Source: a virus (taxonomy: Duplodnaviria; Caudoviricetes). From it: a DNA stretch of 64,000 nucleotides. Positions 12,668 to 16,739 of this stretch are shown in pieces. Every line of letters begins with the position of its first letter. The stretch's first letter is position 1. The stretch is from IMG/VR virus record IMGVR_UViG_3300011337_000669. One strand, given 5' to 3'. Under the pieces are notes generated by a model, which worked only from the letters and a program-made list of their open reading frames with translations, searched no databases and had not been told where the DNA came from. The position numbers were made by a program, and so were the translations under genes.

Positions 12668-13039
12668 TTAGTACTTTAGGGTTAATAAGTATTTTGATTT
12701 ATTTATTGTCGCCAACATTTCATCACGGATATTCAATAAATCTGTGTCATATCTTGTATCCAATTGGTCTGAAAAACTAACTAAAAATTCGGTAATTCCA
12801 TCCATAAAATTTTGTATACTGATGGAGGAGATGTCTTGGAACATCAACGCAAATTCAGGTTCGAATTCTGGCCTTCCATATTTTCCCATCATGACTTCAG
12901 TAAATTCATCAATTAAATCACCAAGTCCGTCATATAATTCTCCATAAGTTCTGTGTTTAGCATCTCCGTATGTTTGCCAATGTAAAAACTTCCATTGAAG
13001 TTGTACTTGTACCAATTTTTTAATTAATTCTTCTTTCAT
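12668..13039 (-). CDS. Ferritin/Dps-like four-helix protein (DUF5856-like)
   Basis: LHWQT...HRTYGELYDGLGDLIDEFTE; start moved to ATG 13039, behind TATTTAT at 13044-13050. Confidence 0.7.
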   Translation of the reverse strand: MKEELIKKLVQVQLQWKFLHWQTYGDAKHRTYGELYDGLGDLIDEFTEVMMGKYGRPEFEPEFALMFQDISSISIQNFMDGITEFLVSFSDQLDTRYDTDLLNIRDEMLATINKSKYLLTLKY

Positions 13040-13064
13040 CTTCATAAATATAACAATAACCAAA

Positions 13065-13087
13065 AAAAAGGTCTCAAGGACCTTTTT
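13065..13087. terminator. Intrinsic terminator hairpin
   Basis: aaaaaggtc-tcaag-gaccttttt. Confidence 0.7.
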
Positions 13088-13104
13088 AAGTTTTATTTTC
13101 AAAA

Positions 13105-14631
13105 TCAAGAACCCCTTGTTTTTTTTGATTCCATATGAGATGTAACATCATCCAATATATTGTTTCTCTTGGCGTATGTATAAGCTCCCATACTACCTAA
13201 TCTAAAAGCCTCTCTGTTTTGATATTTAAGTGCCTCTTGTTTAACCGATTCGTCATCCCAAACGTTTCTTCTTTTCATATGTTTAGTAACATCATTTATC
13301 CAACCGTATTTTATTGCCGCATCATAGGCAGTCTTATTGTTTTTTCTAAAGTCGACATAATTATCATATTTTTTTGCAATATCATTAACCAAATTTTTAG
13401 TCCAAACAAATTGTGACTCCATATGTTTTGTAACTTCATCTAACCAATTATTTTTTACCGCAGAATTATAGGCACCAGGCGAATTTTGTTGGAATTCCCT
13501 TCTCATTTTATATTTTTCAGCTTCTTTTTTAACATTATCAAAATCCATCCAAGGAAGTTCTTTCCTTTTCAAATTTTCAATCAAGTCGAACCACCTGTTT
13601 TTTAATATTGCGTTGTATGCTGATTCTTCATTTTTCCTAAAGTTTGCTAAAGTGTCATAGTTGATAATTATTTTTTGTAAAATCTCTCTAGTATATTTTT
13701 TAAATTTAACATCTTTTTCCAAATCTTTAACTACATCCTCATACCACCCATTGTTTACTGCCGCTTCCCAAGCATTTTTTTCATTATTCCTAAAATCTTT
13801 CAGTTTAGTATATTTTTTGGCAATATTCATGACTTTTTCTTTAGACCATTTTTGTAAATTACCACCTAAACCACCTGTTTTTACTTTATTCAATGGTGTC
13901 CAACCATTATTAATATACTGATTTAATATCTCATTTTCTTTTTGTACAGATTCCTCATTAGTAATAAATTCTGTAATTTTTTTCAAAACCGGTGTCAATC
14001 CAGTTTTTAATGTGTGCTGATACACAGAACTTTTTACATCCCTTAAATGGCTGTACTCCCTTTTCTTTTGATTATATGTTAGTCCAACATAAAAATAGTT
14101 ATCAGGAAATTCATACACATAAATCATTCTGTTATATCTATTCCCCAACAATTCCATATGTTGTGTAACATCATCCATGATGCCCATTCGTAAAGCGGCA
14201 TTATACGCATTTTGGTCATTTTTTTCAAATTCACTTCGATATTTATATTTTAATGCAATATCATGTATTTTTTTTTTATCCCATCGCGTATTTCGTTTCA
14301 TATGCGAAATTATGTCATCAATAAACCCATTTCTTTTAGCGAATAAAAAAGCTCCATTTTCATTATTTCTGAAATCTATAAATCTATCATAATTTTGTGC
14401 AATTCGAAATATATCATCATATGTCCAATTATTATTTCGTTTTATTACCATATGGGTTGTGACATCATCTATCCACCCGTTACGTCTAGCGGCTTCATAC
14501 GCGTTTGAGGATTTTTTTTGAAATTCTCCTCTATTCCCATATTTTTCCGCTTCTTTTTGAACCAATTCTTTAGTCCACTTGACTCTTTCAGTAATAATTT
14601 TTTTTATTTCGGCAAGAATTATTTGTTTCAT
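13105..14631 (-). CDS. GIY-YIG endonuclease flanked by eight ~47-aa helical repeats
   Basis: Central IYVYEFPDNYFYVGLT...R...H...E. Repeat consensus W(T/D)xxxVxxxAxKYxxxxxFxxNxxxAYxAAxxNGWxDDVTxHM, three copies before and five after. Confidence 0.8.
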   Translation of the reverse strand: MKQIILAEIKKIITERVKWTKELVQKEAEKYGNRGEFQKKSSNAYEAARRNGWIDDVTTHMVIKRNNNWTYDDIFRIAQNYDRFIDFRNNENGAFLFAKRNGFIDDIISHMKRNTRWDKKKIHDIALKYKYRSEFEKNDQNAYNAALRMGIMDDVTQHMELLGNRYNRMIYVYEFPDNYFYVGLTYNQKKREYSHLRDVKSSVYQHTLKTGLTPVLKKITEFITNEESVQKENEILNQYINNGWTPLNKVKTGGLGGNLQKWSKEKVMNIAKKYTKLKDFRNNEKNAWEAAVNNGWYEDVVKDLEKDVKFKKYTREILQKIIINYDTLANFRKNEESAYNAILKNRWFDLIENLKRKELPWMDFDNVKKEAEKYKMRREFQQNSPGAYNSAVKNNWLDEVTKHMESQFVWTKNLVNDIAKKYDNYVDFRKNNKTAYDAAIKYGWINDVTKHMKRRNVWDDESVKQEALKYQNREAFRLGSMGAYTYAKRNNILDDVTSHMESKKTRGS

Positions 14632-14652
14632 ATCTAGTAAATACTATTAAAT

Positions 14653-14680
14653 AAATAAACCCCAAATATGGGGTTTATTT
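14653..14680. terminator. Intrinsic terminator hairpin
   Basis: aaataaacccca-aata-tggggtttattt at the MTase gene stop. Confidence 0.75.
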
Positions 14681-15538
14681 ATTTTTTTCAAAATCTAATA
14701 TTTGTTGTCGTTTACTTTCAACAAATAAGTTAACTCGTTTTCTTGCAACTTCACAATAATTCGAACTGAGTTCGATTCCAATCCATCTGCGTCCTAACGT
14801 TTCTGCCGAGGCCAAACTAGTTCCGCTGCCTGTGAATGGGTCCATAATTATATCATTCTTGTAGGTAAGAATTTTTATCGCTTTCGTTGGGATGTCCATT
14901 GAAAAAGTTGCCTTTGTTTGTTGTCTTGTATCCGCAAAATATTCCCATTGACCATATACCAAACTCATAAAGTCCTTCTTATCTTCATCTTGATACATGG
15001 TTTTTTTCTTTATTGTTCCGTCTTCTTGTTCAACATCAACAACTTCCCCAACCCACTGAGGTTCCCCTTTAACTTTCTTAATCCTATCTTTCTTGTAAGC
15101 AAGGATTACACACTCTTTTGGATTGTAAATATATGGACTGGATGGACTCATCCAAGAACCCCAAGCGGTGGTCTTACTTCTATGTGGCGCATTCTCATCA
15201 AGGTCAACAAGTCCATAGAATTTGAACCCAACCTTTTTCATTACAGACCAAAATTCAGACATAAATAATACTCTACCACCTCTATCTTGGACATTGATTT
15301 CATAAGGAATATTAATCGCAACTCTACCATCTTCTTTCAATATTCTGAACGCCTGAGTTAACCAATTCTCAGTGAATTGCCAGTAATCATCCATAGATTG
15401 ATTGTCATCGTGAGTATCATAGTCAATACCGACGTTATAAGGTGGAGAGGTAACAATTAAATCAATTATTGACTCAGGTAATTTACCCATCTCAACAACA
15501 CAATCTCCATTTATAATCCTATTTGTTTCTAACATCAT
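14675..15538 (-). CDS. DNA methyltransferase, N4-C/N6-A, beta class
   Basis: Motif IV TSPPY precedes motif I DPFTGSGT. Confidence 0.92.
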   Translation of the reverse strand: MMLETNRIINGDCVVEMGKLPESIIDLIVTSPPYNVGIDYDTHDDNQSMDDYWQFTENWLTQAFRILKEDGRVAINIPYEINVQDRGGRVLFMSEFWSVMKKVGFKFYGLVDLDENAPHRSKTTAWGSWMSPSSPYIYNPKECVILAYKKDRIKKVKGEPQWVGEVVDVEQEDGTIKKKTMYQDEDKKDFMSLVYGQWEYFADTRQQTKATFSMDIPTKAIKILTYKNDIIMDPFTGSGTSLASAETLGRRWIGIELSSNYCEVARKRVNLFVESKRQQILDFEKNK

Positions 15539-15936
15539 AATTTACCTTCGTTTCTTAATTGTTCTCTAATCTTCGTCGCAGATATATCTGAAACTTCTTG
15601 AGGTGGAATATGTTCTATAATATCATAACCAACACCTCTTCCGAAGTTTATCGATTCAATATCAGGTATTATCATAACTTTAACTCTACCCTCCTGAATT
15701 AAGTCTATAAGTTCTCCAGTGATTCTATTCTCAACCTCTTGTGAAGTATAAGGATTTTTATCGTCAGGTTCAATGTCCCTAATACAAATTAGAACATTTT
15801 TACCATCGTTCAAGATTTCATTCACAATCCATCGATGACCCCCGTGAAATGGCTGGAACCTCCCCACAAACATAGAATACTGTTTACCTCCAGTATTTTT
15901 CAATTTTGGATCTCCCTCAACGTGTGTCTTTTTCAT
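15535..15936 (-). CDS. HIGH-superfamily (cytidylyltransferase-like) nucleotidyltransferase
   Basis: FVGRFQPFHGGH and ISATKIR motifs. Confidence 0.85.
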   Translation of the reverse strand: MKKTHVEGDPKLKNTGGKQYSMFVGRFQPFHGGHRWIVNEILNDGKNVLICIRDIEPDDKNPYTSQEVENRITGELIDLIQEGRVKVMIIPDIESINFGRGVGYDIIEHIPPQEVSDISATKIREQLRNEGKL

Positions 15937-15944
15937 TTTTGTTT

Positions 15945-16388
15945 TTAATTTGTTTTTATGAACTCCAAAATAATATTTACAGAATCCTCAATTGAGACAT
16001 TGGTCGTATCAATATCTATGTAATTCTCTGATGGTCTTCCATATTCTTTAACGAAATATCCTTCTCTTCCCCTAACTTCGGTGGTGTGGACATAAACTTC
16101 GATAAGATTATGTCCCATCTTTGATTTGAACTTATCTCTTTGGTCTTTATATGGAGACACTAAAGAAACAAATACCTGTTTACCTTTATTATGAAGATAT
16201 TCTGAGATTTGTTGCGCAAGTTCAATATTCTTTCTACGTCCAACTTCAGAATAATCTTTATTATCAAATAAATCTCTCAAATCATCTCCATCAATATGAA
16301 ATACATCCGAACCCATATTTAACATCATTTGTTTACATAGGGTTGTCTTGCCTGAACCAGGTTGTCCTGTTAACCAAATTATTGACAT
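15945..16388 (-). CDS. cysC: Adenylyl-sulfate (APS) kinase
   Basis: WLTGQPGSGKTT, IDGDDLR, GRRKN and SLVSPY...R motifs. Confidence 0.85.
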   Translation of the reverse strand: MSIIWLTGQPGSGKTTLCKQMMLNMGSDVFHIDGDDLRDLFDNKDYSEVGRRKNIELAQQISEYLHNKGKQVFVSLVSPYKDQRDKFKSKMGHNLIEVYVHTTEVRGREGYFVKEYGRPSENYIDIDTTNVSIEDSVNIILEFIKTN

Positions 16389-16609
16389 TTCTCTAAGTTT
16401 TTGATTTTTCTGTCTAAATAAAATGCAGCTTTTTTGAGGTCTTCTAATTCCTTTGTTCGGTCTTTTATACCCGCTCTTGCAACATATTTTACTACGTTAA
16501 ACAAATAAGCATCGTGGTCTAATCCCCAAGATTCACAAACCTTAATAACTTCGTACGGATTCTCTTCACCTCCATAATGGTTCGGGTGATTTATCATTTC
16601 TTTATTCAT
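16379..16609 (-). CDS. DUF3310 (SaV-like) protein
   Basis: INHPNHY...FNVVKYVARAGIK...EDLKKAAFYLDR; start moved to ATG 16609. Confidence 0.85.
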   Translation of the reverse strand: MNKEMINHPNHYGGEENPYEVIKVCESWGLDHDAYLFNVVKYVARAGIKDRTKELEDLKKAAFYLDRKIKNLEKCQ

Positions 16610-16739
16610 TATTTTTACCCCATTTTTTTCCGATGTATTCATTGTATCTATCATACTTGCTTGGACTATACAACATCCAAACAAAATAGATATCAATGAC
16701 CCATTCTATCTTTTTTAGAATTTTTTTAATTTTTTCCAA
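16602..16739 (-). CDS. 45-aa hypothetical protein (TTG start, not in ORF track)
   Basis: Hand translation LEKIKKILKKIEWVIDIYFVWMLYSPSKYDRYNEYIGKKWGKNNE*; overlaps both neighbours in operon fashion. Confidence 0.5.
   Translation of the reverse strand: MEKIKKILKKIEWVIDIYFVWMLYSPSKYDRYNEYIGKKWGKNNE

What the first reader, a model, noticed from the sequence alone, without database searches (positions are those of the whole stretch)
13105..14631. GIY-YIG nuclease embedded in an array of eight ~47-aa helical repeats: possible modular DNA-recognition system
Seen: three repeats, a GIY-YIG core (IYVYEF...FYVGLT...R...H...E...N), then five repeats. Consensus WxxxxVxxxAxKYxxxxxFxxNxxxAYxxAxxNGWxDDVTxHM, with fixed aromatic/Ala framework positions and variable polar positions (e.g. 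KWTKELVQKEAEKYGNRGEFQKKSSNAYEAARRNGWIDDVTTHM versus VWDDESVKQEALKYQNREAFRLGSMGAYTYAKRNNILDDVTSHM). Established: GIY-YIG homing nucleases are monomeric and rely on appended DNA-binding modules, normally C-terminal (NUMOD/HTH). Inference: the repeats may each read a short DNA segment on both sides of the cut site, like a TALE-style array, which would make specificity repeat-programmable.
Basis: partly seen in the sequence, partly recalled or inferred. Interest (0 to 1): 0.72.

Follow-up and report, generated by a model that had tools for sequence, protein, structure and literature searches.

The report
Mobile GIY-YIG nuclease flanked by helical repeats
A selfish DNA-cutting gene has inserted into the end of a jumbo phage's DNA methyltransferase gene; its nuclease core sits between 3 and 5 copies of a common but undescribed 46-residue helical module that probably forms its DNA-binding arms, though nothing supports a TALE-like code.

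Summary
ORF 13105-14631 (minus strand, 508 aa) has three ~46-aa helical repeats, a GIY-YIG core with all catalytic residues invariant, then five more repeats.

New here: the gene is a mobile cassette.
- About 30 of 80 related phage contigs, all lacking the gene, have the methyltransferase (MT) gene followed directly by the next gene. Only one of the 80 carries the gene.
- A 326-kb relative rated 100% complete has no copy.
- The 1612-bp cassette (13131-14742) brings its own diverged MT 3' end and a terminator. A remnant of the ancestral MT 3' end lies behind it.
- The window allele has lost a C-terminal C2H2 zinc finger kept by 93-94% identical alleles.

The repeat matches nothing in the Pfam copy searched or in PDB sequences. 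It still occurs in about 9,800 protein clusters (50% identity), with 5-18 copies per protein among the 258 surveyed and variable placement around the core. It also occurs with zinc ribbons, a helicase, other nuclease-like domains, or no detected nuclease. Both arrays are under purifying selection.

DNA binding is a reasonable inference but is not shown. The TALE analogy is not supported: repeats are 18-50% identical, show no hypervariable pair, and are not modelled as a fixed array. The scan noted a similar protein on other DNA (e1-5212467).

The parts
13105..14631 (-). ORF of 508 aa: GIY-YIG nuclease with a 3 + 5 helical repeat architecture (P0001)
14152..14583 (-). N-terminal array, repeats R1-R3 (aa 17-62, 67-112, 115-160)
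   Evidence: AF2 models each unit as four short helices with pLDDT about 85-94. dN/dS is 0.05-0.18.
13867..14139 (-). GIY-YIG catalytic core (aa about 165-255), with Y171, Y181, R191, H195, E232 and N248
   Evidence: Pfam E 2.7e-4. Foldseek to I-TevI 1mk0/1ln0, probability 1.0/0.99. Residues invariant in 46 homologues.
13129..13854 (-). C-terminal array, repeats R4-R8 (aa 260-305, 311-356, 360-405, 408-453, 456-501)
   Evidence: dN/dS is 0.18-0.36.
13131..14742 (-). The inserted cassette: 1612 bp that replace 23 bp of the gene-less allele
   Evidence: blastn against empty-site locus L017: homology stops at window 14743 and resumes at 13130. Junction sequences.
14675..14742 (-). Replacement 3' end of the methyltransferase gene, carried by the cassette. 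It encodes ...KRVNLFVESKRQQILDFEKNK*, where empty alleles have ...KRVQHFINQKKQGVFDFESKT*
   Evidence: The same replacement end is present in the gene-carrying loci L012 and L001.
14649..14684 (-). Terminator-like hairpin (AAACCCCATATTTGGGGTTT plus a T-rich tail) between the methyltransferase gene and the nuclease gene
   Evidence: Five terminator-like sites were found in the region against 0.4 expected.
13056..13130 (-). Remnant of the ancestral methyltransferase 3' end (reads QKKQGVLDFENKT*) plus its terminator hairpin (13065-13087). Codons 502-508 (SKKTRGS) and the stop of the nuclease ORF are read from this remnant in another frame.
14675..15538 (-). N6/N4 DNA methyltransferase gene, the host gene of the insertion
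   Evidence: PHROG 67, E 3.9e-37. PF01555 on the orthologues.
12671..13039 (-). Downstream flanking gene (DUF5856 / Dps-like). In empty alleles it follows the methyltransferase gene directly.

Best explanation
The ORF is a free-standing GIY-YIG homing-type endonuclease gene carried on a 1.6-kb cassette. The cassette has invaded the 3' end of the DNA methyltransferase gene of a freshwater jumbo phage. It supplies a diverged replacement for the last ~22 methyltransferase codons, a terminator and the nuclease gene. The methyltransferase therefore stays intact while the original sequence at the insertion point is broken up. The inferred mechanism is that the enzyme cuts the uninterrupted methyltransferase 3' end of cassette-free relatives during co-infection and is copied in by repair. 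The I-TevI-like catalytic core would make the cut. The eight ~46-aa four-helix modules would be independently folded DNA-binding units joined by linkers of a few residues. Together they would hold a long site on both sides of the core, in the manner of zinc-finger or NUMOD arrays rather than a TALE solenoid. The window allele is a derivative: recombination with a cassette-free allele at an A-rich stretch removed the C-terminal C2H2 zinc finger. Shown here: the architecture, the fold of the core, the conserved catalytic residues, the cassette boundaries, the presence/absence polymorphism, purifying selection and the size of the family. Inferred: cleavage of the empty site, DNA binding by the repeats, and that the finger-less allele is still active.
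For: Core:
- Pfam GIY-YIG at E 2.7e-4.
- Foldseek to I-TevI 1mk0/1ln0, probability 1.0/0.99.
- The catalytic residues Y, Y, R, H, E and N are invariant in 46 homologues.

Mobility:
- Of 80 viral contigs with a 66-91% identical methyltransferase, one (L012) carries the gene.
- About 30 of them have the methyltransferase gene followed after ~58 bp by the next gene. Most others have a gap of about 1.1-1.2 kb there, which in L008 holds an unrelated ORF.
- Exact boundaries lie at 14743 and 13130. The methyltransferase 3' end is duplicated and diverged.
- The full-length allele L086 shows how the window allele arose.
- A 326-kb relative rated 100% complete has no copy. Another relative has a 37%-identical copy at a different place.
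- Cultured Vibrio, Rhizobium and Burkholderia phages match at 1-6 places per genome.

Repeats are functional:
- dN/dS is 0.05-0.18 in the N-array, 0.15-0.22 in the core and 0.18-0.36 in the C-array, against three alleles.

Repeats as nucleic-acid modules (circumstantial):
- The protein has pI 9.5, and repeats carry a mean net charge of +2.4.
- Basic residues are conserved at four positions of the unit.
- The repeat occurs in 9,799 clusters. Number and placement around the core vary from 0-12 before it to 1-9 after it.
- Partner domains: CapR/DUF723/DUF4379 zinc ribbons, a ResIII/DEAD helicase (E 3.6e-13), and weak T5orf172-like and PD-(D/E)xK-like domains.
- Close alleles add a classical C2H2 finger.
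- Barth et al. 2023 (PMC10448857) describe the same beads-on-a-string logic for zinc-finger repeats in T5orf172 homing endonucleases.
Against: - There is no direct evidence of DNA binding or cleavage.
- The single-repeat model matches no known DNA-binding fold: best VIA-align Z is 3.1, and Foldseek finds nothing.
- Two of the eight repeats are net acidic.
- 24 of the 258 surveyed proteins have no nuclease domain that my HMMs detect. Several of these carry unassigned tails, so the module need not serve only nucleases.
- The Pfam score of the core is 1 bit under the gathering cut-off.
- The window allele lacks the zinc finger and may be impaired.
- The T5orf172 and PD-(D/E)xK partner assignments rest on sub-threshold E-values of about 1e-3.
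Confidence: 0.6

Rival explanations
1. Restriction-modification-like pair. The nuclease works with the adjacent methyltransferase, which protects phage DNA while the nuclease degrades unmethylated host or competitor DNA.
For: The gene lies directly downstream of the N6/N4 methyltransferase in every close orthologous locus found, at 55-94% protein identity. GIY-YIG restriction enzymes exist (background knowledge).
Against: The methyltransferase stands alone in 79 of 80 related contigs and in a complete 326-kb relative. The junctions show an insertion into the methyltransferase 3' end, with a duplicated remnant. A terminator separates the two genes. Family members elsewhere sit in other contexts. 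Site-specific homing explains the adjacency.
Confidence: 0.07
2. A decaying or domesticated allele. The finger-less 508-aa form no longer homes. It persists either as a remnant or with a new role, for example as a DNA-binding regulator or a weapon against competing phages.
For: The C-terminal C2H2 finger was lost by recombination with an empty allele. Alleles of 256-509 aa coexist with the 540-aa form in the same 90% cluster. Homing endonuclease genes are known to degenerate or be domesticated (PMC10448857).
Against: The reading frame is intact. All catalytic residues are kept. dN/dS is 0.25 against the full-length allele. The exact protein is seen on 6 contigs and a 509-aa variant on 13.
Confidence: 0.2
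3. The repeats are not DNA readers. They bind protein or RNA, act as spacers, or are regulatory modules, and DNA targeting is left to the core and, in full-length alleles, the zinc finger.
For: No structural match to a DNA-binding fold. The only rows above chance for the whole model outside the core are weak resemblances to PPR and TPR-like repeat proteins, at probability below 0.25. Proteins with repeats and no detected nuclease exist.
Against: The repeat's partners are nucleases, a helicase and zinc ribbons. The protein is basic, with conserved Lys/Arg positions. A bare GIY-YIG core has little site specificity of its own, and known homing enzymes need appended DNA-binding domains (background knowledge on I-TevI).
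Confidence: 0.15
4. TALE-like programmable array. Each repeat reads one short DNA step through a few specificity residues, so swapping repeats would re-programme the site.
For: Repeat number and order vary widely between family members. Framework positions are conserved and polar positions are variable.
Against: Repeats are only 18-50% identical to each other. Variable positions vary as much among orthologues as between repeats, so there are no RVD-like columns. AF2 predicts no fixed arrangement of the repeats (pTM 0.32).
Confidence: 0.1

Closest known systems
I-TevI, I-BmoI and the T4 Seg free-standing GIY-YIG homing endonucleases
   Same: An I-TevI-like GIY-YIG catalytic fold with the same catalytic residues. 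A free-standing gene inserted in or next to a conserved phage gene, with sporadic presence among close relatives.
   Different: The catalytic domain is central rather than N-terminal. No NUMOD, IENR or HTH domain is detected. Eight copies of an undescribed helical module lie on both sides of the core.
T5orf172 homing endonucleases with repeated CapR/DUF723/DUF4379 zinc-finger DNA-binding domains (Barth et al. 2023, PMC10448857)
   Same: A nuclease of the GIY-YIG superfamily joined to a variable number of small repeated modules, 'beads on a string'. Repeat number varies between relatives. Some members of the present family also carry a DUF723/CapR-like zinc ribbon.
   Different: The repeat here is a four-helix unit with no cysteines in this protein. 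It shows no profile similarity to the DUF723-like ribbon (hhalign probability 0.4%). The arrays flank the nuclease on both sides.
TALE / BurrH-type DNA-binding repeat arrays
   Same: Tandem helical repeats of about 34-46 aa in variable number, with a conserved framework.
   Different: Repeats are far more diverged (mean 36% identity). There is no hypervariable residue pair and no predicted superhelix, and DNA binding is unproven.
PF18780 HNH_repeat (homing-endonuclease-associated repeat)
   Same: A helical repeat of about 50 aa found in arrays next to nucleases and SF2 helicases, and in repeat-only proteins.
   Different: No HMM match of any of 136 repeats to PF18780 at E <= 1. A profile-profile comparison could not be run.

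Membership tests
GIY-YIG nuclease superfamily (PF01541) | GIY-YIG alpha/beta fold with the two Tyr-containing strands | tested here: met
   Foldseek to the I-TevI catalytic domain 1mk0/1ln0: probability 1.0/0.99, TM by target 0.65-0.71. Pfam gives E 2.7e-4 and 21.6 bits against a cut-off of 22.6. Homologues score up to 34 bits.
GIY-YIG nuclease superfamily (PF01541) | Conserved catalytic Arg, His, Glu and C-terminal Asn | tested here: met
   R191, H195, E232 and N248, with Y171, Y181 and G183, are invariant in 46 homologues.
GIY-YIG nuclease superfamily (PF01541) | Metal-dependent DNA cleavage | not testable with these tools
   Needs a biochemical assay.
Free-standing homing endonuclease gene | Presence/absence polymorphism at one precise site among closely related genomes | tested here: met
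   One of 80 methyltransferase-bearing contigs has the gene and about 30 have the empty site. Boundaries are at window 14743 and 13130. A complete relative has no copy.
Free-standing homing endonuclease gene | The insertion alters the sequence at the insertion point while preserving the host gene | tested here: met
   A diverged replacement methyltransferase 3' end lies upstream of the nuclease gene and a remnant of the ancestral end lies downstream.
Free-standing homing endonuclease gene | Cleaves the gene-less allele and is copied in by repair | not testable with these tools
   Needs a cleavage assay on the empty allele and co-infection crosses.
I-TevI / Seg architecture | N-terminal catalytic domain, linker, then a C-terminal NUMOD or HTH DNA-binding domain | tested here: not met
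   The core is at residues 165-255 of 508, with repeats on both sides. No NUMOD, IENR or HTH family appears at E <= 1.
TALE-like repeat array | Near-identical repeats that differ at a few hypervariable specificity residues | tested here: not met
   Repeat-to-repeat identity is 18-50%, mean 36%. No column is variable between repeats yet fixed among orthologues to the degree of an RVD.
TALE-like repeat array | Continuous superhelical solenoid wrapping DNA | tested here: inconclusive
   AF2 gives pLDDT 85 but pTM 0.32, so the relative placement of repeats is not predicted. The model was made without DNA.
CapR/DUF723/DUF4379 zinc-finger repeats of T5orf172 homing endonucleases | Cys/His zinc-ribbon module | tested here: not met
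   The repeats of this protein contain no Cys. hhalign of the repeat profile against DUF723-like modules gives probability 0.4%.
PF18780 HNH_repeat | Match to the family HMM | tested here: inconclusive
   None of 136 repeats matches at E <= 1. No match in a related 326-kb phage. A profile-profile comparison was not possible.

The most novel reading that the evidence does not exclude
The 46-aa module is a new class of modular DNA-binding unit. Each repeat contacts a short, definable DNA step. The central nuclease cuts inside a long bipartite site read by the two arrays. Repeat order would then dictate the site and could be re-arranged to re-target the enzyme.
Probability: 0.15. Interest if true: 0.85.

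Novelty: new variant of a known kind. Interest (0 to 1): 0.6.

Why it matters
Characterised GIY-YIG homing endonucleases have the nuclease at one end and the DNA-binding domain at the other. Here the nuclease sits in the middle of two arrays of a small helical module. That module matches no family in the Pfam copy searched and has no solved relative by sequence. No paper describing it turned up in five full-text searches. It nevertheless occurs in about 9,800 protein clusters, mostly viral. If the module binds DNA, it is a large unexplored family of modular DNA readers, used by phage selfish elements with several different nuclease and helicase partners. The locus also gives a defined test substrate, because the empty allele shows where the enzyme should cut. 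The insertion is a clean example of a homing cassette that carries a spare end for the gene it invades.

Tried and rejected
- Sequence search of the whole protein and of a 136-repeat profile against PDB: only chance hits, namely interleukin-3 at E 0.38 and a designed repeat protein matched over 10 residues.
- Pfam scan of 136 single repeats at E <= 1: no family matched by more than two repeats.
- NCBIfam: a spurious SseD hit at 18 bits against a cut-off of 130.
- PHROGs: only phrog_20046, of unknown function.
- Fold search of the single-repeat model: Foldseek/PDB found nothing; VIA-align wide gave a best Z of 3.1, which is noise level.
- Whole model against PDB and Swiss-Prot AFDB: only the GIY-YIG core is significant. 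PPR/TPR rows have probability below 0.25.
- hhalign of the repeat against the DUF723-like zinc ribbon: no relation.
- PF26058, listed for some homologues in precomputed annotation, is not in the local Pfam copy and in no paper. The nearest Atlas clusters list only PF01541, so PF26058 is probably not the repeat.
- No whole genome is held for the window.
- blastn against cultured and deposited phages found only short matches to uncultured megaphage records.
- Literature searches for a description of the repeat found none.
- The idea that the SERRATE/Ars2, AbiEi or PAXIP1 Pfam hits in homologues are meaningful was dropped: none of their matched stretches passes the E-value limit on its own, and all lie inside repeats.

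Full report
**Observation.** The window holds a 508-codon ORF at 13105-14631 on the minus strand. Using repeat 1 as a phmmer seed recovers all eight units. Seven match at i-E 1e-6 to 4e-13. They lie at residues 17-62, 67-112, 115-160, 260-305, 311-356, 360-405, 408-453 and 456-501. An HMM of the eight finds no other copy in the six-frame translation of the window.

**The core.** Pfam GIY-YIG matches residues 170-239 at E 2.7e-4. The score is 21.6 bits, 1 bit below the gathering cut-off of 22.6. An AF2 model built on 46 homologues has mean pLDDT 85.1. Its core matches the I-TevI catalytic domain: 1mk0 with probability 1.00 and TM by target 0.65, and 1ln0 with probability 0.99, TM 0.71 and rmsd 3.0. 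It also matches a Neurospora intron-encoded endonuclease in Swiss-Prot AFDB, probability 0.98. Y171, Y181, G183, R191, H195, E232 and N248 are invariant across the 46 homologues. An active nuclease is likely.

**The repeat.**
- Each unit is modelled as four short helices. The single-repeat model, built on 136 repeats, has pLDDT 89.8.
- In the whole-protein model every unit is confident but pTM is 0.32. The relative placement of units is therefore not predicted.
- The consensus over 136 repeats from 18 proteins is xxWTKExCxxEALKYxxRxEFxKxxxxAYxxAxxxGWLDEICxHM. W, F, A and H are at least 90% conserved.
- The repeat matches no Pfam family in the local copy, no PDB sequence and no solved fold above noise. 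The best Z is 3.1, and Foldseek finds none.
- Within this protein the repeats are 18-50% identical, mean 36%.
- Positions that differ between repeats are about as variable among orthologues of the same repeat. Nothing resembles the TALE pattern of near-identical repeats with a hypervariable residue pair.

**Family.**
- A word-indexed search gave more than 1,836 relatives.
- An exhaustive profile search with the repeat found 9,799 clusters at 50% identity with E <= 1e-3. Of these, 3,788 have E <= 1e-30.
- In the 258 proteins I surveyed, total repeat number runs from 5 to 18. The GIY-YIG core can sit after 0-12 repeats and before 1-9. The 3+5 layout is the commonest.
- Twenty-five of the 258 did not match my GIY-YIG core HMM. 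One of them (P0250) nevertheless reaches the Pfam GIY-YIG threshold.
- Leftover regions include a solid ResIII/DEAD helicase (E 3.6e-13). They also include weak T5orf172/MUG113-like (E 2e-3) and PD-(D/E)xK MTES_1575-like (E 1e-3) domains.
- N-terminal CapR/DUF4379/DUF723-type zinc ribbons also occur.
- The repeat profile is unrelated to those ribbons.
- Atlas neighbours are mostly viral.
- In deposited phage genomes the family occurs in 28 records. These include KVP40-like Vibrio jumbo phages, Rhizobium phages and Burkholderia BcepSauron, with 1-6 matching places per genome. All are annotated as hypothetical or as a GIY-YIG domain protein.

**Mobility.** I searched viral contigs with the upstream methyltransferase. 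This returned 80 loci at 66-91% identity.
- tblastn with the window's neighbouring genes shows that only one of them (L012) has the nuclease gene.
- In about 30 loci the methyltransferase gene is followed after ~58 bp by the DUF5856/Dps-like gene.
- Most of the rest have a gap of about 1.1-1.2 kb at that spot, which in L008 holds an unrelated ORF.
- Against the empty allele L017, homology stops at window 14743 and resumes at 13130. So 1612 bp replace 23 bp.
- The cassette begins with a diverged copy of the last ~22 methyltransferase codons, ...KRVNLFVESKRQQILDFEKNK*. Empty alleles read ...KRVQHFINQKKQGVFDFESKT*.
- A terminator-like hairpin (14649-14684) and then the nuclease gene follow.
- Behind the nuclease gene lies a remnant of the ancestral methyltransferase end (QKKQGVLDFENKT*) with its terminator (13056-13130).
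- A 326-kb relative rated 100% complete has no copy of the family. Another relative has a 37%-identical copy elsewhere.

These are the expected marks of a free-standing homing endonuclease gene. The gene is always next to the methyltransferase in orthologous loci. Site-specific insertion explains this better than a restriction-modification partnership.

**The window allele.** Alleles that are 93-94% identical (P0002, L086) are 540 aa long. They end in a classical C2H2 finger, C-x2-C-x12-H-x4-H. In the window the ORF leaves that sequence right after ...SHME. It then runs into the methyltransferase remnant in another frame and ends SKKTRGS*. The two sequences share an A-rich stretch at the junction. 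This is consistent with recombination between an occupied and an empty allele. The exact 508-aa protein is on 6 contigs, the longest 276 kb, and a 509-aa variant is on 13. The allele is therefore real and circulating.

**Selection.** Nei-Gojobori dN/dS was computed against three alleles at 94%, 78% and 55% protein identity. It is 0.05-0.18 for the N-array, 0.15-0.22 for the core and 0.18-0.36 for the C-array. The repeats are at least as constrained as the catalytic domain.

**Interpretation.**
- The best reading is a mobile GIY-YIG homing-type nuclease whose helical modules are its DNA-binding arms. They would act as beads on a string.
- Barth et al. (PMC10448857) proposed the same logic for zinc-finger repeats in T5orf172 endonucleases.
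- DNA binding is inferred from several lines. The protein is basic (pI 9.5). Lys/Arg are conserved at four repeat positions. The partner domains are nucleases, a helicase and zinc ribbons. A GIY-YIG core also needs an appended DNA-binding domain (background knowledge).
- The binding has not been shown.
- The TALE-like programmable reading remains possible but unsupported.

**Prior notes.** I did not compare the sequences. The 2006 survey of the superfamily (PMC1564403) lists no such architecture.

Noticed in passing
L008:2274-3361 and the equivalent stretch of L001:5485-6492; absent from the window: A second variable insert occupies the same hot spot between the methyltransferase terminator and the DUF5856 gene. 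It is about 1.1 kb and carries a 335-aa ORF with no Pfam hit. A gap of the same size is present in many relatives, and in L001 the insert occurs together with the nuclease cassette.
   Followed up: partly
alignment A2, columns 9, 45 and 47: In the wider family most repeats have Cys at two positions (72 and 85 of 136) and a near-invariant His (132 of 136). The two Cys tend to co-occur (59 both, 38 neither, 39 one only). This could be a metal site or simply core packing. The window protein has Val/Ile/Leu and mostly Thr at these positions.
   Followed up: partly
L005:7126-7978: In one nuclease-carrying relative the methyltransferase is called as three fragments (68, 151 and 71 aa). It is either a broken gene or contains sequencing frameshifts.
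   Followed up: no
L002:930-1520 (also in L003): A separate 196-aa GIY-YIG gene without repeats lies about 6.5 kb upstream of the repeat-bearing one in a related phage contig.
   Followed up: no
window 14675-16696: A run of minus-strand genes: DUF3310-like (by position; its orthologues in L002 and L086 carry PF11753), APS-kinase-like, a small nucleotidyltransferase-like gene and the DNA methyltransferase. It is conserved in relatives and is the subject of another note of this scan (e1-5410603).
   Followed up: no
L088 (G005:C1:79461-82886): A 419-aa open frame with the same repeats (37% identity to the N-array) lies at a different place in a related 84-kb phage contig.
   Followed up: no
P0001:1-16; P0076 and P0106 N-termini: A short helix (MKQIILAEIKKIITE here, MKDLIRHILRE and MRDLIKRIVRE in distant members) precedes the first repeat in several family members. 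Its role is unknown.
   Followed up: no
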